From IMG/VR virus record IMGVR_UViG_2690316086_000021: a stretch of DNA of 39,472 nucleotides, one strand, 5' to 3'. Shown one piece after another: positions 8,542 to 39,472 of this stretch. The notes below the pieces were generated by a model. The model was not told the origin of the DNA. It was given only the letters and a program-made list of their open reading frames with translations, and made no database searches. Within the stretch, counting starts at the first letter, position 1; the number at the start of each line of letters is the position of its first letter. This DNA is from a virus (lineage: Duplodnaviria > Heunggongvirae > Uroviricota > Caudoviricetes). The translations under genes were made by a program, and so were the position numbers.

Positions 8542-9483
8542 ATGAGCACTAAATTAACCGGCTATGTATGGGATGGTTGCGCAGCGTCAGGCATGAAATT
8601 ATCCAGCGTGGCAATTATGGCACGCCTGGCTGATTTCAGTAATGACGAAGGTGTGTGCTGGCCATCAATTGAAACCATTGCCCGCCAGATTGGCGCGGGG
8701 ATGAGTACCGTCAGAACGGCTATCGCACGGCTGGAAGCAGAAGGCTGGTTAACGCGTAAGGCGCGTCGCCAGGGTAACCGCAATGCGTCGAATGTTTATC
8801 AGCTTAACGTTGCGAAGCTTCAGGCTGCGGCTTTTTCTCAACTGTCAGATTCTGACCCGTCAAAATCTGACGCATCAAAATCTGACCCGTCAAAATTTGA
8901 TGCGTCGAAATCTGGCAAAAAAGCGGGTTTTCACCCGTCAGAATCTGGCGGGGATCCGTCAGTAAAATCAAAACATGATCCGTCAGATAAAAAAACTTCT
9001 CGTCCGGACGCTTCGCAACCGGACACGCGGAAGGCTGAACAGGATTTTTTAACTCGCCATCCTGATGCGGTTGTATTCAGCCCTAAAAAGCGCCAGTGGG
9101 GGACGCAGGATGATTTGACCTGCGCACAGTGGCTCTGGAAAAAAATCATCGCCCTGTACGAGCATGCCGCCGAATGTGACGGCGAGGTGGTTCGTCCCAA
9201 AGAACCGAACTGGACAGCCTGGGCAAACGAAATTCGCCTAATGTGTGTGCAGGATGGTCGTACTCATAAACAAATCTGCGAGATGTACAGCCGCGTCAGC
9301 CGCGATCCGTTCTGGTGCCGTAACGTGCTCAGCCCGTCGAAGCTGCGGGAAAAATGGGATGAGCTTTCCCTGCGCTTATCGCCGTCCGTCAGCACGTACA
9401 CCGAAAAACGCGAAGACCCGTACTTCAAAGCCAGTTACGACAACGTGGACTACAGCCAGATCCCGGCAGGATTCAGGGGGTGA
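8542..9483 (+). CDS. Replication initiation protein (lambda O-like) with internal iteron-type repeats
   Basis: N-terminal winged-helix DNA-binding region (..WPSIETIARQIGAGMSTVRTAIARLEAEGWL..) and internal tandem DNA repeats, as in lambdoid O genes that contain the origin. Confidence 0.7.
   Translation: MSTKLTGYVWDGCAASGMKLSSVAIMARLADFSNDEGVCWPSIETIARQIGAGMSTVRTAIARLEAEGWLTRKARRQGNRNASNVYQLNVAKLQAAAFSQLSDSDPSKSDASKSDPSKFDASKSGKKAGFHPSESGGDPSVKSKHDPSDKKTSRPDASQPDTRKAEQDFLTRHPDAVVFSPKKRQWGTQDDLTCAQWLWKKIIALYEHAAECDGEVVRPKEPNWTAWANEIRLMCVQDGRTHKQICEMYSRVSRDPFWCRNVLSPSKLREKWDELSLRLSPSVSTYTEKREDPYFKASYDNVDYSQIPAGFRG
8851..8995. repeat. Iteron-like tandem repeats (about 15-bp unit, consensus close to CCGTCAAAATCTGA) inside the O-like gene; candidate phage origin
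   Basis: Four perfect or near-perfect tandem copies (unit starts at about 8857, 8872, 8887, 8902) plus three degenerate CCGTCAG copies (8935, 8956, 8980), followed by an A-rich tract. Confidence 0.6.
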
Positions 9484-13572: not shown

Positions 13573-14412
13573 TTATTTCTTTTTTTTATTACTTTCAGAT
13601 AATCGTCGGTTTAATGTGTATTTTATTTGGTTCCTAATCATTTTTTCAGGAATGTCATATTTGTCTAAGAATGATATTATTTCATCCTCGTCAAGCAATC
13701 CATTCTTTATAATTTCATCTATCTGTTTTTGTAGATACCAAACATCCTTCTGTTCTACAGGAGTTAAATTCATATGGCTATTTATGGAGTTGATAGTAGC
13801 ATCACGTTCAAGAACTCTAATCCTTTGATTTAATGAACGAGTGTTTTGTAATATTTCAGATAAAAGATCTTGTTCAGTACGTGGTTTTACTTCTTCAGTT
13901 GGAGGGTATTGATCTAAAGCTCGTTTAAAATTTTTTTCAAATTGCTCCCAGTATGTATTAAAAACTTGCTTTAGAATACGGTCATCTAAAGATTTATCGA
14001 CAAGACAATTGTTTATTGTCCTTACTAATTCCCAAACACTCTCTTTATTTGGCGTTGTGTGATTGAATTGAGCAAGTGGATCTTTTAAATCTTCTGGTTT
14101 TAAGTCAATCAAGAATGTACAAACTTTATTTGTTGAAAGTCCTTTTGCTAGTGCTCCTGTTTCAAACAAAATCCATGGTTTATTTTTATTTTCTTGTGTC
14201 AAACATACAATGCCGACAGATACATCTTTTAATTTATCATTAATTTCAGAGAACCATATAGCGCCACGATCAATATCTCTGGTTGAAATCCATGGCTGCG
14301 AAGCTTGGATAACACACTTCAGCCAGTCGCTAATAAGTTCTGCAACAGCTTGACTTCTTTGCCCAGACCAACTTATGAACACTTTCATTATGTACTCCAT
14401 GTAATCACTCAA
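13573..14412 (-). CDS. TIR-domain protein with uncharacterised C-terminal helical domain (candidate anti-phage defence gene); likely start at ATG 14388
   Basis: N-terminus MKVFISWSGQRSQAVAELISDWL..GIVCLTQENKNKPWILFETGALAKG matches the TIR beta-A motif (VFISxS) and a W(I/C)LxE-type putative catalytic Glu. ATG 14388 has GGAG at 6-nt spacing; the track start at 14412 is a TTG. Visibly AT-rich; opposite strand to neighbours. Confidence 0.7.
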   Translation of the reverse strand: MSDYMEYIMKVFISWSGQRSQAVAELISDWLKCVIQASQPWISTRDIDRGAIWFSEINDKLKDVSVGIVCLTQENKNKPWILFETGALAKGLSTNKVCTFLIDLKPEDLKDPLAQFNHTTPNKESVWELVRTINNCLVDKSLDDRILKQVFNTYWEQFEKNFKRALDQYPPTEEVKPRTEQDLLSEILQNTRSLNQRIRVLERDATINSINSHMNLTPVEQKDVWYLQKQIDEIIKNGLLDEDEIISFLDKYDIPEKMIRNQIKYTLNRRLSESNKKKK

Positions 14413-15981: not shown

Positions 15982-16275
15982 TTATTGTGAGCAATACACA
16001 CGTGCTTCCAGCGGAGTATAAATGCCTAAAGTAATAAAACCGAGCAATCCATTTACGAATGTTTGCTGGGTTTCTGTTTTAACCACATTTTCTGCGCCGC
16101 CACAAATTTTGGCTGCATCAACAGTTTTCTCCTGTCCAATTCCCGAAACGAAGAAATGATGGGTGATGGTTTCCTTTGGTGTTACTGCTGTCGGTTTGTT
16201 TCCAACAGTAAACGTCTGTTGAGCACATCCTGTAATAAGCATTGCCAGAGCGGCAGAAAACAACATTTTTTTCAT
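15982..16275 (-). CDS. bor: Bor lipoprotein (serum-resistance lipoprotein of lambda)
   Basis: From ATG 16275: MKKMLFSAALAMLITGCAQQTFTV..KICGGAENVVKTETQQTFVNGLLGFITLGIYTPLEARVYCSQ, near-identical to recalled lambda Bor; the track's longer start is trimmed. Confidence 0.88.
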   Translation of the reverse strand: MKKMLFSAALAMLITGCAQQTFTVGNKPTAVTPKETITHHFFVSGIGQEKTVDAAKICGGAENVVKTETQQTFVNGLLGFITLGIYTPLEARVYCSQ

Positions 16276-34128: not shown

Positions 34129-34920
34129 ATGCATCGTATAGACACGAAAACCGCGCAGAAGGATAAGTTCGGCGCGGGTAAGAACGGTTTTACCCGTGGT
34201 AACCCCCAAACCGGCACACCTGCCACCGATCTGGATGATGACTACTTTGACATGTTGCAGGAAGAACTTTGTAGCGTGGTGGAGGCCTCCGGTGCCAGCC
34301 TGGAGAAAGGGCGGCATGACCAGCTGCTTACCGCACTTCGTGCGCTGCTGTTAAGCCGCAAGAATCCGTTTGGCGATATCAAATCGGATGGCACAGTGCA
34401 AACGGCTCTCGAAAACCTTGGTTTAGGAGAAGCGGCGAAAAGGGATGTGGGCACGACAGTCGGAACCGTTGCCGCTGGTGATGATTTACGCATAACAGGA
34501 GCACTTCAAAAGGCAAATAATCTTTATGAGTTAACAAATAAATCTGATGCAAGAGCTAATCTTGGGTTAGGAACCGTTGCAACAAAAAACGTGGGAAATA
34601 GTGCTGGGCAAATACCTGATATGTCTTACTGGTCTTCACCGGCAGGCGGAATTAATTTCCCGAATGGGTTCCAGATGCGATTCGGGACTATCGCTGGTAC
34701 TGGTGGAAAATTATTTTCTACGCCATTTACAAATCAGTGCTATGGCATTGTTTTCGGACAAACATATGGAGCCAACTACTGGATGTTCAGCCCGATGTAC
34801 AGAGCATCTGATCTGAGTAATACCAGTTTTGCATTCATTAACAAAGCCTGGTCTGGCGTTCCGGGGGTAGGTTCTCAGGACGCTGGTGAATCAGTTTTTT
34901 ATATTGCAGTAGGGTATTAA
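34129..34920 (+). CDS. Tail fiber protein (constant N-terminus + currently expressed variable C-terminus)
   Basis: N-terminus ..[27 protein letters not shown].. is the conserved tail-fiber N-terminal motif; the crossover site lies inside the gene at about 34406..34432; the 3' part is visibly AT-rich. Confidence 0.72.
34406..34432. repeat. Left recombination site of the invertible tail-fiber segment (hix/gix-like)
   Basis: CTCTCGAAAACCTTGGTTTAGGAGAAG contains the GAAAACC..GGTTT core typical of Hin/Gin sites and is repeated in inverted orientation at 36384..36408. Confidence 0.6.
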
Positions 34921-34921
34921 T

Positions 34922-35365
34922 ATGGAAATGGTTTATAGCGCCTCAAATAATAGTTTTTTCGCTAAAAATGATGTGGCGAAATATGAACAGGCCGGATGGG
35001 AACTTGCTGATATTGTCGAAGTGACATATGACACTTACCTGGAATTTATTGAAGACAGAACGTTGCAAGGGAAAGTACGCATCGCGGGTGATGATGGCCT
35101 TCCCACCTGGGGGGAAATTCCACCGCCAACTCATGAGGAACAAATTGCCGCAGCCGAACTGGAAAAGCAGCAATTGATTAATCAGGTCAACGAATACATA
35201 TACAGTAAGCAATGGCCTGGTAAAGCAGCGATTGGTCGCCTGAAAGGTGAGGAACTGGCGCAATATAATTTGTGGCTGGATTATCTGGACGTACTGGAGC
35301 TGGTCGATACTTCCGGTGCGCCAGATATTGAATGGCCTACGCCTCCGGCAGTTCAGGCCAGATGA
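34922..35365 (+). CDS. Tail fiber assembly protein (Tfa)
   Basis: 147-aa ORF with typical Tfa N-terminus (MEMVYSASNNSFFAKNDV..). Confidence 0.72.
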   Translation: MEMVYSASNNSFFAKNDVAKYEQAGWELADIVEVTYDTYLEFIEDRTLQGKVRIAGDDGLPTWGEIPPPTHEEQIAAAELEKQQLINQVNEYIYSKQWPGKAAIGRLKGEELAQYNLWLDYLDVLELVDTSGAPDIEWPTPPAVQAR

Positions 35366-35930
35366 CATCCGGCGCGGTGCTCGTATCTGTTGCCGTCACC
35401 GCGTCAATGTAATCAAGCACGGCGTTAAGCCGGGTGGTTTCTGCCTGCGTCAGCTTCCGCCCGGCCTGTAATTTCAGCTGAATCAGGCTGATGGAAGCCA
35501 TTGCAGCATCAATCAGTGACTGGCGCTGTGCTTCTGCCGCTTCTACTGCGGCACCGTGTTGTGCCTCAGTATCTGTCACCCATTTCTCACCATCCCATTT
35601 ATCATATGGCGTTAACGGTGAAAGCGTGACATAACCGTTTTTGATGGCACCGATATAATCCACTGTAACAGCTGCGCCATTTTCGATTGAGTAAACAGTC
35701 TCATTGCGATGGTCTTCTTCATGGCTCCATCCCTTACCCGTAAATACTGCCACTTTTCCCGGAATGTTTTCGCCAGGGTCAATACCAGTGGAACAGGCGG
35801 GCATACTTACGCCAGTATTAATATATTCATCAGACCAGCCCGTATATTCATACGTTACTGCATCATAATAAAAACAACGCATATCACCCGGCACTGTAGC
35901 CAGTCCATTTTCATCAAAAACAGGTTTCAT
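35337..35930 (-). CDS. Alternative tail fiber assembly protein (inverted orientation, Tfa')
   Basis: 197-aa minus-strand ORF; its C-terminus (..DYIDAVTATDTSTAPDVIWPELP) parallels the plus-strand Tfa C-terminus (..DVLELVDTSGAPDIEWPTPP). Confidence 0.68.
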   Translation of the reverse strand: MKPVFDENGLATVPGDMRCFYYDAVTYEYTGWSDEYINTGVSMPACSTGIDPGENIPGKVAVFTGKGWSHEEDHRNETVYSIENGAAVTVDYIGAIKNGYVTLSPLTPYDKWDGEKWVTDTEAQHGAAVEAAEAQRQSLIDAAMASISLIQLKLQAGRKLTQAETTRLNAVLDYIDAVTATDTSTAPDVIWPELPEA

Positions 35931-36439
35931 TATTTAGCCCTTACTAAAAAGTTGAATGCGATGTTACGGGGACGCGTTTCAGTACCGCCTGGGTTTTGAA
36001 AAGCGGGCAAAGCACTTCCAGCCGGCTGACTAACGCCGCTGGTATATAATGGAGAAGCATTCGAAACGGTGCCAAACACTACATTACTGCCACTTCCATT
36101 TAGCCCTAAAATTTTATGCTCGTGCGTTTTGAAATCGTCTGATTGTGCGGAAAGTAATGCACGGCCACTGTCAACGCCACGGCCATCATCCCAGATACGA
36201 ATAAATTCACCGCGTGCTTCAGGCAGTGTTAATGCAGGAAACACCAGAGCGAGTTTTGGATAATTCGACGCTGAGAATGTGGCTCCGTTGAACTTCAGAA
36301 ACACCATACTGGACCAGCTGTCGATTACAGTATTTGGCATTGCAGCGGACGGCCAGAAGAACGGAACGCCAATAGCTGGAGCACCTTCTCCCAAACCAAC
36401 ATTTATGAAAATGCAGAAATAACGAGCAAATGGCATCAT
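35930..36439 (-). CDS. Alternative tail fiber C-terminal segment (silent until inversion)
   Basis: Minus-strand ORF ending ..RNIAFNFLVRAK (conserved fiber C-terminal motif); shares the junction peptide GLGE with the expressed fiber at the recombination site. Confidence 0.6.
   Translation of the reverse strand: MMPFARYFCIFINVGLGEGAPAIGVPFFWPSAAMPNTVIDSWSSMVFLKFNGATFSASNYPKLALVFPALTLPEARGEFIRIWDDGRGVDSGRALLSAQSDDFKTHEHKILGLNGSGSNVVFGTVSNASPLYTSGVSQPAGSALPAFQNPGGTETRPRNIAFNFLVRAK
36384..36408. repeat. Right recombination site of the invertible segment (inverted copy)
   Basis: The reverse complement TTCATAAATGTTGGTTTGGGAGAAG matches the left site over TTGGTTT(A/G)GGAGAAG. Confidence 0.55.
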
Positions 36440-36465: not shown

Positions 36466-36594
36466 ATGCTTATTGGCTATGTACGTGTGTCAACAAATGA
36501 CCAGAACACAGATCTACAACGTAATGCGCTGAACTGTGCAGGATGCGAGCTGATTTTTGAAGACAAGATAAGCGGTACAAAGTCCGAAACCTAG
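36466..36594 (+). pseudogene. Truncated DNA invertase (Gin/Pin/Hin serine recombinase), first 42 codons only
   Basis: MLIGYVRVSTNDQNTDLQRNALNCAGCELIFEDKISGTKSET then stop; N-terminal catalytic-serine motif (YVRVSTNDQ) present, but the rest of the roughly 190-aa enzyme is missing. Confidence 0.78.
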
Positions 36595-36641
36595 GGCTGA
36601 CACTGCTGTTCTTGTTGCAAATTAAAGGATTTAATAGTGAG

Positions 36642-36669
36642 TAGCGGCCTTACTAATGTAAGGCCGCTA
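36642..36669. terminator. Hairpin between the invertase remnant and the GmrSD-like gene
   Basis: TAGCGGCCTTA-ctaat-TAAGGCCGCTA perfect inverted repeat followed by T-rich sequence. Confidence 0.45.
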
Positions 36670-36689
36670 TAATCATTTTATTAATTGCA

Positions 36690-38639
36690 TTAATCGTGTT
36701 TTGGCCATACTTTCAATGCAATTTCCCCCAACATTTTACCCCGCTCCAGGATTTCATCCTCATCCCATTTATCCTTAACTATAAGTGGAATGTTCAGTCG
36801 TAGATTGGTGTGGACGATGAGAGCATCACGTTTTTTCAGAAATACAGCATTCTGAACAGAACGGTTTACGCTAAGGTTAAGCAAAGTTAGATTTCCCAAC
36901 GTAGCTATCGCTTGTTGCCGTTTCCTTACCAGTAGCTGTTCTGGGGTAAGATCGGTTCCAGACAGAACAATTTGGTTCAATACCGTAGCATCTGAATTTG
37001 TCACCATATGACCATTTTCGAGAGGCCAACAGGAATACCAACTTTGAGGCATAAGATGATCGATATCGAGGTTAGAAAGATTTGGAACATCAGGCTTCTC
37101 TGTCTTCACTTGGCGACAAAGTTCTCTTTCAAGTTCCGTTAACATTGAGCGCATTTTCGGTGCGTCGAGCCTGCCAGGATAAAGTGGAGCATTGATGCAA
37201 GCGTTGAGAAATTCTGAGTCCCCAGGCCAACGTGAGGCTTCGCCATTTAAGCTATTGAGGATATTACGTAACTCAACACTGGAAATTTCTGTTTTAGACA
37301 AGTGCCGCAATACATTCATAAATACATTGTTGTAATTCTTTGGCGTCAGGCCACATACGGCTCTTCGTACTACGTAGGAGACAAGATCATTATACATGGC
37401 TGCTTTCTCATCATCGGCGATGTTAGCTATCGAAATGAACAAAGCAAGCGGATAAAGTGTCGTCACATCATAGGCTGCGATGCGATGTCCAAAGTGTGAG
37501 ATGGGGGTTGTGCCAAAACCACCAACCAATTCTTTATATTGTGATGCATATTGTTTGAGGCGCTTTACTTGCAGATCTGCTCGTTGTGAAGGCAAGTCCT
37601 TACTTACATAATCACGATACTCATTGTAAAGACGAGACAGATCGATTTCACGTTGCCTTTCTGATTGCAATGTTGCATGCACTAGCCACTCCATGCGTGG
37701 TTTATTAATACGACCACGACGTTGTCTTTCTGACCAGTACGTATCTTCAAAGATCTTCCACTCATTCTCATATAATTCAACAGCATTAATATTTTCATGT
37801 TCAGCGCACATAAAAATATAATTGCGAATAAGATCTGTGGCATGAAGTTCCGCACCTCTGCCATTTAATGTTTCAAAAATTATTTGAGCGTCATCTTCAG
37901 CCTCGAGAAATATGCTTACTAGTTTCAGATCCGTCAAGACAGCCTCAATTAATGCTACAGCATTTTCTCGTGGTGAGTGATTTTCTATTTTAATCCACTT
38001 TATAAAGGCTTCAGTAAAAAAACATAATGCTTCTAGTGATGGCGGGTGATTAAAATGCTTACGCAACGTACCATGCTGCGTGAAACTATCAGAGAATACA
38101 TTCCGGATATCGTCAATATTTTCAACATTAAAACTTTGAATAAAATGAGTTTGATCCCGAAAAGTTGGCCACAGTTTGAAGCGCTCTACTTCTTTATTTC
38201 GCATTGTGTCTTCGTTTGAGTTTTTCAGGCAAGACGAAATGAGAGGCTCTAAGTAGGAAAGATCTGTTGCACGTAATGCTAATCGGATGGATGCCAGAAC
38301 ATATTGAAGAGTGGTCAATCGTTGCTGACCATCAATAATATGTATGGAATCTACACCGAATAATCCTTTTTTTGGTTGAGGTTCCAGTACAACTGCACCA
38401 AGGAAATGGGGAGTTGGTTTTGTACCCGAGAGCCGGGATTGTGCTTTCTCTAGGATATCCTCCAGTAGAGCTGACCATTGGTTTCGCTGAGTCCATACAT
38501 AGGCACGTTGATAGAATGGAACACAGTATTGTCGGCGGTCTTGAAAAAGTTGTTGGACAGTTAGCGTCTCGGATTTCATGGTATACCTGTAAGCGACATT
38601 GTACAAAAGTGAGGAGTTAATCTGATTTAGAACAATCAT
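36690..38639 (-). CDS. GmrSD-like type IV (modification-dependent) restriction endonuclease: N-terminal DUF262 + C-terminal DUF1524
   Basis: N-terminal ..FYQRAYVW....IIDGQQRLTTL.. (DUF262 DGQQR motif) and C-terminal ..DIDHLMPQSW.. region (DUF1524 His-Me finger-like); visibly AT-rich; start is either 38639 or ATG 38579. Confidence 0.75.
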   Translation of the reverse strand: MIVLNQINSSLLYNVAYRYTMKSETLTVQQLFQDRRQYCVPFYQRAYVWTQRNQWSALLEDILEKAQSRLSGTKPTPHFLGAVVLEPQPKKGLFGVDSIHIIDGQQRLTTLQYVLASIRLALRATDLSYLEPLISSCLKNSNEDTMRNKEVERFKLWPTFRDQTHFIQSFNVENIDDIRNVFSDSFTQHGTLRKHFNHPPSLEALCFFTEAFIKWIKIENHSPRENAVALIEAVLTDLKLVSIFLEAEDDAQIIFETLNGRGAELHATDLIRNYIFMCAEHENINAVELYENEWKIFEDTYWSERQRRGRINKPRMEWLVHATLQSERQREIDLSRLYNEYRDYVSKDLPSQRADLQVKRLKQYASQYKELVGGFGTTPISHFGHRIAAYDVTTLYPLALFISIANIADDEKAAMYNDLVSYVVRRAVCGLTPKNYNNVFMNVLRHLSKTEISSVELRNILNSLNGEASRWPGDSEFLNACINAPLYPGRLDAPKMRSMLTELERELCRQVKTEKPDVPNLSNLDIDHLMPQSWYSCWPLENGHMVTNSDATVLNQIVLSGTDLTPEQLLVRKRQQAIATLGNLTLLNLSVNRSVQNAVFLKKRDALIVHTNLRLNIPLIVKDKWDEDEILERGKMLGEIALKVWPKHD

Positions 38640-39039
38640 TTTATGTTGCTATGATACAACGTATTTGTTACCGGTTAAGTAAAAAACGCGTCTGAACGCT
38701 GACGTTTTAGGGCTTTACTAGTTATTCTTTCTTATCTCTTCATCATCCCATCGGCATCCTGTCGAGGTTGTTGACTTGTTGTTATTTATTTTGTTTAGGC
38801 GCTGTTTAATTATTATTGATGGGACTGGTGGTGAGAGGTGATTGAAACCGCAGACAGGTCGTATGCAAGACGTGCTGCGGTTGGCTGATGCACTTTTGAT
38901 AGTGCAAGTATTGAATGATTGCCAGTCACAGCGGATTGTACTTAGGTAATATGACGGTTCAAGGCGTTTAAACTGAAACCATCCACATATCAGTCTCTTC
39001 AAACATTTCCTAAATCGTTCGGCTTATCTGTTCTTTCTC

Positions 39040-39472
39040 ACGTTTGCTGACGTCAGTGCTGATTGCCGGCAGTGTCATCATCGGTTTTACACGATACCCT
39101 TTGCGTTGAACGAGTCGTACTACTGTAACAACGCGTCGGTGAAGCTGCTCATCCCGACACAGGACAGTCGGGATATCATTGCAGTAGCAACGGGGAGTCT
39201 GGATGCAATATGGAAAGACGGACACCGATATCAGAAAGCCGGGGTAATGCTGGGGGACTTCTTCAGTCAGAGCATGCCCTAACCTATTCGACGATAACGC
39301 GCTGGGTCCTGGGAGCGAAAAGTTAATGAGCGTGCTGGAGCACCTCAACGCAAAAGACGGGAAGGAAACACTCTGTTTCGCTGGGCAGGGCATTCAGCAG
39401 CAGTGGCAGATGAAACGCGAGATATTTTCGCACCGGTATACAACTAGATTTTCTGGCATTTTAGGTGGTTAG
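39040..39472 (+). pseudogene. umuC-like (Y-family polymerase V subunit) 3' remnant, frameshifted
   Basis: Two consecutive frames give ..DIIAVATGSLDAIWKDGHRYQKAGVMLGDFFSQ then NLFDDNALGPGSEKLMSVLEHLNAKDGKETLCFAGQGIQQQWQMKREIFSHRYTTR.., which I recognise as the UmuC/MucB C-terminus; frameshift near 39280; the 5' two-thirds of the gene are absent. Confidence 0.5.

What the first reader, a model, noticed from the sequence alone, without database searches (positions are those of the whole stretch)
36466..38639. GmrSD-like DUF262/DUF1524 restriction gene occupies the place of the missing invertase 3' end
The invertase ORF stops after 42 codons. It is followed by a hairpin and then a 649-aa minus-strand ORF with DGQQR (DUF262) and DxDH (DUF1524) motifs, the domain pair of GmrSD/BrxU-type modification-dependent nucleases. 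The segment is visibly AT-rich compared with the tail genes. This looks like a defence cargo gene acquired at the fiber-invertase end of the prophage at the cost of the invertase.
Basis: partly seen in the sequence, partly recalled or inferred. Interest (0 to 1): 0.65.

Follow-up and report, generated by a model that had tools for sequence, protein, structure and literature searches.

The report
Known GmrSD restriction gene replacing prophage invertase
An E. coli prophage carries, just after its tail-fibre genes, an allele of the already characterised GmrSD enzyme that cuts the sugar-modified DNA of T4-like phages; it sits where most of the tail-fibre invertase gene used to be, a layout shared by about 5% of complete E. 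coli genomes and largely described before.

Summary
A 42-codon stub of a Pin-type invertase (36466-36594) is followed by a strong hairpin (36641-36670). A minus-strand GmrSD gene follows. Its real CDS is 36690-38579 (629 aa), not the 649-aa maximal ORF.

The protein has both Pfam GmrSD domains. It is colinear with characterised enzymes: 94.0% identical to Eco94GmrSD and CT596 GmrSD, 96.2% to UTI89 GmrSD. DGQQR and the catalytic D507/H508/N522 are intact. He et al. 2015 already placed this gene just downstream of the tail-fibre genes of SfII-like prophages. An invertase neighbour was reported for CT596 in 2007. So the finding is already known.

Refinements from this work:
- The pin'-gmrSD junction is old and occurs in 289 of 5426 complete E. 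coli genomes.
- DNA that normally follows a pin stop codon survives at 38845-38924, so the cassette replaced pin codons ~50-184.
- The same slot holds McrA, an McrBC-like pair or a Mom-like gene in other prophages.
- The tail-fibre segment still inverts without a cis invertase. Both orientations occur at 100% identity among stub-carrying prophages.

I infer, but did not test, that the stub persists because it carries the Fis-dependent inversion enhancer.

The parts
34406..34431 (.). Left crossover site (pix-like, CTCTCGAAAACC-TT-GGTTTAGGAGAA) inside the tail-fibre gene 34129-34920.
   Evidence: Read from the sequence. It is the exact left end of the inversion relative to strain ML775.
34420..36397 (.). 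Invertible tail-fibre segment. It holds two alternative fibre C-termini and two tail-fibre assembly genes: 34922-35365 (+), 35337-35930 (-) and 35930-36397 (-).
   Evidence: Window 34418-36399 equals the reverse complement of L001 8419-10400 at 100% identity, while the flanks are collinear at 99.8-99.97%.
36386..36411 (.). Right crossover site (TTCTCCCAAACC-AA-CATTTATGAAAA).
   Evidence: Sequence read; it is the right end of the inversion.
36466..36594 (+). pin' stub: the first 41-42 codons of a Pin/Gin-type serine invertase. They end at a TAG created by a 1-bp deletion relative to the PT62 allele. Faint pin similarity continues to about 36615.
   Evidence: Pfam Resolvase positions 2-48 of 145. 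100% identical to intact pinE of strain WR3-3 up to 36589. tblastn finds PinE residues 1-44 only.
36487..36550 (.). Inferred position of the Fis-dependent recombinational enhancer within the stub.
   Evidence: Inference only. The Hin enhancer lies about 100 bp from hixL (PMC3798978), and here the crossover centre is at 36398/36399. No binding or sequence-model test was done.
36641..36670 (.). Hairpin with a 13-pair stem between the convergent pin' and gmrSD. Probably a bidirectional terminator.
   Evidence: Terminator-like site. Folding z-scores are -7.2 and -7.9. 93-100% conserved between alleles.
36690..38579 (-). gmrSD coding sequence, 629 aa. N-terminal DUF262/ParB-like NTPase domain with DGQQR at residue 83; C-terminal DUF1524 HNH nuclease with D507/H508/N522.
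   Evidence: Pfam. PADLOC mREase_IV scores 1434.7 bits over residues 21-649 of the long ORF. 94.0% and 96.2% identity to the characterised enzymes. dN/dS between alleles is 0.11-0.17.
38651..38678 (-). Promoter-like site (TTAACC-16-TATCAT) 72 nt upstream of the gmrSD ATG.
   Evidence: Consensus scan only. The scan found 10 sites in the region against 6.6 expected, so this is weak evidence.
38845..38924 (+). Relic of the DNA that normally follows a pin stop codon. It marks the right edge of the replacement.
   Evidence: 88.75% identity over 80 nt to L008 4001-4080, which starts at the last base of a decayed pin gene and is followed there by McrBC-like genes.
39010..39472 (.). Gene fragments beyond the cassette: a dinI-family remnant (39010-39096, -) and a umuC C-terminal/DUF4113 remnant (39091-39472, +). 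Still inside the attL-attR interval.
   Evidence: RefSeq annotation of the 99.97%-identical ML775 region. The attR copy of the thrW 3' end lies about 2.7 kb beyond the window end.

Best explanation
Window 36690-38579 (minus strand) encodes a single-chain GmrSD Type IV restriction enzyme. It is an allele of the CT596/Eco94/UTI89 enzyme group and is carried as cargo at the tail-fibre/attR end of an SfII/e14-like myovirus prophage integrated at thrW.

Mechanism, by homology to the characterised enzymes. The N-terminal ParB-like DUF262 domain (DGQQR) binds and hydrolyses NTP. The C-terminal HNH domain (D507-H508-N522) cuts DNA containing glucosyl-5-hydroxymethylcytosine or 5-hydroxymethylcytosine. 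The lysogen would thereby be protected from T-even phages that lack a matching injected inhibitor such as T4 IPI*.

Origin. The gene, its promoter region and its terminator hairpin form a roughly 2.2-kb AT-rich cassette (about 36616-38844). The cassette replaced codons ~50-184 of the Pin-type invertase in an ancestral prophage. The resulting pix-pin'-gmrSD block has since spread among several prophage types by recombination.

Basis of each step.
- Shown here: domain content, motifs, identity to the tested enzymes, breakpoints, population frequency, purifying selection, and continued inversion of the fibre segment.
- Inferred: enzymatic activity and phage range of this particular allele.
For: - Pfam GmrSD_N 7e-34 and GmrSD_C 5.9e-20, both far above their cut-offs.
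- PADLOC Type IV model scores 1434.7 bits end to end.
- The protein aligns without gaps to Eco94GmrSD/CT596 GmrSD (94.0%) and UTI89 GmrSD (96.2%). D505, D507, H508, N522, N528, E271, E273 and E278 are all conserved (sequences taken from the supplement of PMC4437046).
- Eco94GmrSD activity, the D507A/H508A/N522A knock-outs, restriction of T4 delta-ip1 by more than 10^6-fold and the prophage location are published (PMC4437046).
- dN/dS is 0.11-0.17 between alleles.
- Breakpoints are mapped. The junction is in 289 genomes and the module in 300 of 5426.
- Intact pinE followed by mcrA occupies the same slot in e14.
Against: - No activity data exist for this allele.
- It carries T280 where Eco94 has K280. 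The E278A/K280A double mutant lost most activity. However, T280 is present in 5 of the 10 full-length natural cluster members read.
- Purified UTI89 enzyme, the closest relative, was inactive in vitro.
- The gene is frameshifted in some genomes, so it is dispensable.
- The promoter call is a weak consensus match.
Confidence: 0.88

Rival explanations
1. The gene is an inactive or decaying relic. It is carried along with the prophage but no longer restricts any phage.
For: - K280T lies at a residue within a mutagenised pair important for Eco94GmrSD activity.
- Purified UTI89 GmrSD, 96.2% identical, showed no in vitro activity.
- Frameshifted copies exist in PCN061 and 23S01245-7.
Against: - The 629-codon frame is intact and all catalytic and NTPase motif residues are kept.
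- dN/dS is 0.05-0.13 in both halves of the gene.
- T280 occurs in half of the full-length cluster members sampled.
- The UTI89 strain is reported to restrict T2 and T6 (PMC4437046).
Confidence: 0.1
2. The enzyme works as part of a larger system (BREX-associated BrxU type, or phosphorothioate-sensing SspE type) rather than as a stand-alone restriction enzyme.
For: PADLOC also gives partial hits to SspE models (up to 1.3e-15, N-terminal ~100 residues only) and to Orf5/HEC-06 models. BrxU is a GmrSD-family member (PMC8565348).
Against: - The best model is the stand-alone Type IV enzyme at 1434.7 bits, against at most 258.5 bits for any other.
- The neighbours are a pin stub, tail-fibre genes and gene fragments. 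No BREX or ssp genes are annotated within 8 kb in the 99.9-100%-identical ML775 region.
- Eco94 and CT596 enzymes act alone when cloned.
Confidence: 0.02

Closest known systems
Eco94GmrSD (E. coli STEC_94C, WP_000834395) and single-chain CT596 GmrSD
   Same: 629 aa and colinear with no indels, 94.0% identical. DGQQR and D507/H508/N522 are conserved. Both are encoded in an SfII-like prophage immediately downstream of the tail-fibre genes.
   Different: 38 substitutions, 28 of them in residues 8-204 of the N-terminal domain, including K280T. Sensitivity to T4 IPI* and the phage range of this allele are unknown.
UTI89 GmrSD (UTI89_C2960, the 'UT enzyme')
   Same: The closest characterised relative at 96.2% identity. 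The N-terminal third is mostly UT-like. UTI89 carries the same pin'-gmrSD junction and hairpin (H198-H201).
   Different: 24 substitutions. The window allele is a mosaic that agrees with Eco94 at 14 of the 51 variable positions. It sits in a prophage at thrW with a different invertible-segment cargo.
e14 pinE-mcrA arrangement (E. coli K-12)
   Same: Same prophage architecture: ymfQ, tail fibre, invertible segment, pin, then a Type IV restriction gene before attR.
   Different: In e14 the invertase is intact, the nuclease is McrA (an HNH enzyme targeting methylcytosine) and it is read in the same direction as pin. Here the invertase is cut to 42 codons and the nuclease is GmrSD on the opposite strand.
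BrxU (GmrSD-family enzyme inside a BREX locus)
   Same: Same two-domain fold family (DUF262 plus DUF1524) and the same kind of target, modified cytosines (PMC8565348, PMC12409352).
   Different: Only distant in sequence; phmmer at E 0.01 returned a single PDB entry, 9jfl, whose molecule name is only 'DUF262 domain-containing protein' (8.5e-8). No BREX genes are nearby.
Phage Mu gin-mom end
   Same: An invertase at the end of the tail-fibre module is followed by a DNA-modification or restriction-related accessory gene. Strain WAT even has a Mom-like gene fused to the pin N-terminus in this slot.
   Different: Mom is an anti-restriction modification function and gin is intact in Mu (own knowledge). 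The Mom match in WAT is below the Pfam cut-off (23.5 against 27.1 bits).

Membership tests
[quoted passage not shown] | N-terminal DUF262/GmrSD_N (ParB/Srx-like) domain | tested here: met
   PF03235 scores 118.1 bits against a cut-off of 33.2 and covers profile positions 1-199 of 199.
[quoted passage not shown] | Conserved DGQQR motif, the predicted NTP-binding site | tested here: met
   IIDGQQRLTTLQ, with DGQQR at residue 83 of the 629-aa protein. The motif is defined in PMC4619093.
[quoted passage not shown] | C-terminal DUF1524/GmrSD_C domain with the HNH-type D-H...N catalytic residues | tested here: met
   PF07510 scores 72 bits against a cut-off of 23. D507, H508 and N522 are at the same positions as in Eco94GmrSD, where alanine substitutions abolish cleavage.
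[quoted passage not shown] | Close sequence relationship to an experimentally characterised member over the full length | tested here: met
   94.0% identity to Eco94/CT596 and 96.2% to UTI89, with 629 of 629 positions aligned without gaps.
[quoted passage not shown] | NTP-stimulated cleavage of glc-5hmC/5hmC DNA and restriction of T-even phages | not testable with these tools
   Needs cloning, plaque assays and nuclease assays. Inferred from homologues only.
BrxU subgroup (BREX-embedded GmrSD) | Gene embedded in a BREX operon (pglX, pglZ, brxC and others) | tested here: not met
   Annotated neighbours within 8 kb on either side are prophage tail genes, a pin stub, dinI/umuC fragments, two hypothetical genes and parA.
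Pin/Gin/Hin/Cin DNA invertases (for the 42-codon ORF) | Complete ~140-aa serine-recombinase catalytic domain plus a C-terminal helix-turn-helix DNA-binding domain (~185-190 aa in all) | tested here: not met
   Only Resolvase profile positions 2-48 of 145 are present. PinE residues 45-184 are found nowhere in the window. It is a gene fragment, not an invertase.
Pin-type invertible tail-fibre switch | Two inverted 26-bp crossover sites flanking alternative fibre C-termini, and actual inversion between them | tested here: met
   Sites at 34406-34431 and 36386-36411. An exact flip separates the window from ML775 at 100% identity. Both orientations are found at 100% identity among UTI89-type stub-carrying prophages.

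The most novel reading that the evidence does not exclude
The 5' stub of pin is not mere debris. It is retained because it carries the Fis-dependent recombinational enhancer, expected about 100-165 bp from the right crossover site, i.e. around 36490-36560 and inside the stub that ends at 36589.

If so, invertases encoded by other prophages in the same cell can keep flipping the tail-fibre switch in trans. The prophage would have outsourced its invertase and re-used the freed space for a defence gene.

The slot immediately 3' of pin also looks like a recurrent exchange site for nucleases and enzymes that deal with modified DNA. It holds McrA, an McrBC-like pair, GmrSD or a Mom-like gene in different prophages.
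Probability: 0.35. Interest if true: 0.45.

Novelty: already known. Interest (0 to 1): 0.22.

Why it matters
The gene itself adds nothing new. It is an allele of one of the best-studied Type IV restriction enzymes, in the prophage position already published for it. For annotation, RefSeq's label 'DUF262 domain-containing protein' can safely be upgraded to GmrSD-family Type IV restriction enzyme.

Three by-products have modest value.
- There is population-level evidence that a tail-fibre switch keeps inverting after its own invertase gene has been destroyed. This fits recent work showing that PinQ acts in trans on e14.
- Several unrelated modification-dependent nucleases alternate in the slot next to pin.
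- GmrSD alleles are mosaics. The N-terminal third has diverged about five times further at synonymous sites than the rest of the gene. That is the expected pattern if that part determines escape from phage inhibitors such as IPI*.

Tried and rejected
- Intact invertase elsewhere in the window: tblastn with PinE found only residues 1-44 at the stub. Rejected.
- The 649-aa reading: rejected in favour of 629 aa. The extension is interrupted by a stop codon in two other alleles and is absent from all characterised proteins.
- attR inside the window: there is no second copy of the thrW 3' end in the window. It lies about 2.7 kb beyond the end, so gmrSD is inside the attL-attR interval.
- Sequenced free phages: none of the 50,697 phage records matches the gmrSD part at megablast sensitivity. 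Matches stop at about window 36410.
- Solved structures: the sequence search found only one distant DUF262 entry, 9jfl at 8.5e-8. No structure prediction was run, because 94-96% identity to tested enzymes makes it unnecessary.
- Orientation counts for the window's own segment type: only ML775 has its orientation, and no complete genome has the window's at 99% or more. The population test was therefore repeated on the abundant UTI89/IHE3034 type.
- Donor of the cassette: the one-genome-per-species scan gave a single close relative. It is 79% identical, in Enterobacteriaceae bacterium B14, next to mltC and an integrase fragment, with no pin stub. No donor was identified.
- Excess conservation of the stub: I looked for constraint relative to gmrSD synonymous sites. 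The result is uninformative, because the adjacent 3' two-thirds of gmrSD is equally conserved and gene conversion with intact pin genes cannot be excluded.
- Source of the trans-acting invertase: I could not determine which invertase acts in stub-carrying genomes. Protein searches of single E. coli genomes are not available with these tools.

Full report
**Context.** The window starts in proA and contains tRNA-Thr (thrW) at 1369-1444. A complete-looking SfII/SfIV/e14-like myovirus prophage follows, running from integrase to tail fibres. The window is 99.9-100% identical to the chromosome of E. coli O103 strain ML775, whose RefSeq annotation I used as a guide. The second copy of the thrW 3' end (attR) is not in the window. 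It lies about 2.7 kb beyond the window end, just before the yagP/paoD region. The finding therefore sits inside the attL-attR interval, at the tail-fibre end of the prophage.

**Check of the observation.**
- The plus-strand ORF 36466-36594 has 42 codons and matches only the first third of the Resolvase catalytic domain (profile positions 2-48 of 145).
- A perfect hairpin lies at 36641-36670. Folding gives z = -7.2 on the plus strand and -7.9 on the minus strand, with no shuffle folding as well.
- The minus-strand ORF 36690-38639 carries Pfam GmrSD_N (7e-34) and GmrSD_C (5.9e-20). It contains DGQQR and DIDH.
- G+C is 0.41 for the gene against 0.56 for the structural genes (profile).
- One correction concerns length. 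The 649-aa figure is the maximal ORF. RefSeq, the PADLOC profile (which matches residues 21-649) and all three characterised homologues start at MKSETL. In two other alleles the putative extension contains an in-frame TAA. The CDS is 36690-38579 and the protein is 629 aa.

**What the gene is.**
- The PADLOC model for stand-alone Type IV enzymes matches end to end at 1434.7 bits. The next best model reaches 258.5 bits.
- I took the sequences of Eco94GmrSD, single-chain CT596 GmrSD and UTI89 GmrSD from the supplement of He et al. 2015 (PMC4437046).
- The window protein aligns to all three without a gap. It is 94.0% identical to Eco94 and to CT596, and 96.2% identical to UTI89.
- D505, D507, H508, N522, N528, E271, E273 and E278 are all conserved.
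- The one difference at a mutagenised position is K280T. T280 occurs in 5 of the 10 full-length members read from its 90%-identity cluster.
- Between natural alleles dN/dS is 0.11-0.17, so the protein is under purifying selection.
- Published work shows that Eco94GmrSD is an ATP-stimulated nuclease specific for glc-5hmC and 5hmC DNA. D507A, H508A and N522A inactivate it. It restricts T4 lacking IPI by more than 10^6-fold.
- The GmrS domain is predicted to have a ParB/Srx fold with DGQQR as the NTP site, and GmrD is predicted to be an HNH nuclease (PMC4619093).
- I therefore assign the same mechanism to this allele, as an inference from homology.

[quoted passage not shown] They say the same of the UTI89 and APEC O1 copies. 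I found no statement that the invertase is truncated. He et al. never use the word invertase.

**Anatomy of the replacement.**
- Aligned with intact pinE of strain WR3-3 and of K-12, the window is identical or nearly so up to 36589. Similarity then fades over about 25 bp.
- The PT62 allele still reads ...SGTKSESLGLTLLF against PinE ...SGTKSERPGLKKLL. The window has a 1-bp deletion there, which creates the TAG.
- On the other side, window 38845-38924 is 88.75% identical to DNA in strain KBN10P04869. That DNA begins at the last base of a decayed pin gene, whose reading frame ends ...VSTLYKRFPARII*. There it is followed by an AAA_5 ATPase and an McrC-family protein.
- The simplest reading is that a cassette of about 2.2 kb (roughly 36616-38844) replaced pin codons ~50-184. 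The cassette comprises the hairpin, gmrSD on the opposite strand and its upstream region.
- In e14 of K-12 and in WR3-3, the same slot holds an intact pinE followed by mcrA.
- In strain WAT the first ~36 codons of pin are fused in frame to a Mom-like gene. The Pfam Mom score is 23.5 bits, below the 27.1 cut-off.
- The slot next to pin thus repeatedly holds genes that deal with modified DNA.

**Age and spread.**
- The 261-bp pin'-gmrSD junction is present in 289 of 5426 complete E. coli genomes. The cassette is present in 300.
- It occurs at thrW (this window), at the e14 icd site (JNE21-003) and next to a P4-like integrase (PT62).
- It also occurs behind different baseplate and fibre modules. 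A lambdoid prophage carries the junction too, but IS903B has removed gmrSD there.
- Alleles sharing the junction differ by dS of about 0.25 overall, so the event is old.
- The divergence is very uneven. Codons 1-210 have dS 0.62-0.67 and codons 211-629 have dS 0.12-0.13. The upstream region is only 65-72% identical, whereas the hairpin region is 93-100% identical.
- The alleles are therefore recombinant mosaics whose N-terminal third and promoter come from more distant lineages.
- A 79%-identical homologue in Enterobacteriaceae bacterium B14 has no pin stub.
- No sequenced free phage in the phage collection carries the gene at megablast sensitivity.

**Is the invertase really lost as a function?**
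- The window and ML775 both have the stub. Yet window 34418-36399 is the exact reverse complement of the ML775 segment at 100% identity, with collinear flanks.
- The ends of the flipped segment fall on two inverted 26-bp sites that resemble hix/gix sites.
- For a population test I took the abundant UTI89/IHE3034-type prophage and flipped its segment in silico between its two sites. I then searched 551-bp queries spanning the inner segment end, the site, the stub and the gmrSD junction in both orientations.
- The IHE3034 orientation is found at 100% identity in IHE3034, PMV-1, APEC O1 and others. It gives 72 records with at least 80% coverage.
- The computed opposite orientation is found at 100% identity in UTI89, S88, NU14, APEC O18, ATCC 11775 and others. 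It gives 159 records.
- Inversion has therefore continued after the invertase was destroyed, presumably through invertases encoded elsewhere in the genome.
- Trans action is documented for PinQ of prophage Qin on the e14 segment (PMC12529663).
- I could not identify the acting invertase in these genomes.

**A hypothesis.** In the Hin system the Fis-bound enhancer lies about 100 bp from hixL (PMC3798978). From my own knowledge, the enhancers of hin, gin and cin lie within the 5' end of the invertase coding sequence. Here 100-165 bp from the crossover centre (36398/36399) corresponds to about 36490-36560, inside the stub that ends at 36589. The independent truncation in strain WAT, at about 36572, also lies beyond it. 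The stub may therefore persist because it supplies the cis enhancer needed for trans inversion. This is inference only. I could not show extra constraint on the stub.

**Verdict.** The feature is an already known enzyme in an already described prophage position. Interest is low for the gene itself. The continued inversion without a cis invertase, the recurrent use of the pin-adjacent slot by modification-dependent nucleases, and the mosaic N-terminal third of gmrSD are small but real additions.

Noticed in passing
window 34418-36399, compared with L001 8419-10400; also L020: The tail-fibre invertible segment is in opposite orientation in otherwise 99.9-100% identical prophages that all lack an intact invertase. 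Among UTI89-type prophages both orientations occur at 100% identity, with 72 and 159 records. Inversion therefore continues in trans.
   Followed up: yes
window 36690-38579, compared with L002 8689-10578 and L009 5091-6980: gmrSD alleles are mosaics. Codons 1-210 have dS 0.62-0.67 and codons 211-629 have dS 0.12-0.13. The promoter region is only 65-72% identical. Both parts are under purifying selection.
   Followed up: partly
window 13573-14388 (-): A second AT-rich cargo gene (G+C 0.325) lies between the Q antiterminator and the holin. It encodes a TIR-domain protein (Pfam TIR_2 3.8e-7; PADLOC TIR-TM 1.2e-57) and is a likely second defence gene of the prophage.
   Followed up: partly
window 15982-16275 (-): An iss (increased serum survival lipoprotein) gene sits next to the lysis cassette, according to the RefSeq annotation of the matching ML775 region.
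   Followed up: no
window 39010-39472, and L001 13511-16205: Between gmrSD and attR lie fragments of dinI and umuC (DUF4113), two hypothetical genes, a parA-family gene and a fragment of an SOS-response-associated peptidase. They look like debris of another mobile element trapped inside the att interval.
   Followed up: partly
L007 5027-5731 (strain WAT): The first ~36 codons of pin are fused in frame to a Mom-like 'XF1762 family' gene. This is an independent replacement of the invertase 3' end by a DNA-modification gene. The Pfam Mom score is 23.5 bits, below the cut-off.
   Followed up: partly
L008 3555-7425 (strain KBN10P04869 and about 230 other genomes): A decayed pin gene is followed by the same 80-bp post-pin sequence as window 38845-38924, and then by an McrBC-like pair (AAA_5 ATPase plus McrC).
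   Followed up: partly
L006 5197-6197 and L010 4089-5090: IS903B is inserted exactly at the start of the hairpin (CAVP761), or further into the stub (strain 167), in a lambdoid prophage. gmrSD has been lost there and a Type I hsdR gene lies beyond.
   Followed up: no
L017 2817-4707 and L019 2641-4529: gmrSD is annotated as frameshifted in strains PCN061 and 23S01245-7, so the gene decays in some lineages.
   Followed up: no
window 8845-8952: Five overlapping copies of a ~15-bp unit (TCAAAATCTGAC-like) lie inside the replication-initiator-like gene of the prophage. They look like origin iterons.
   Followed up: no
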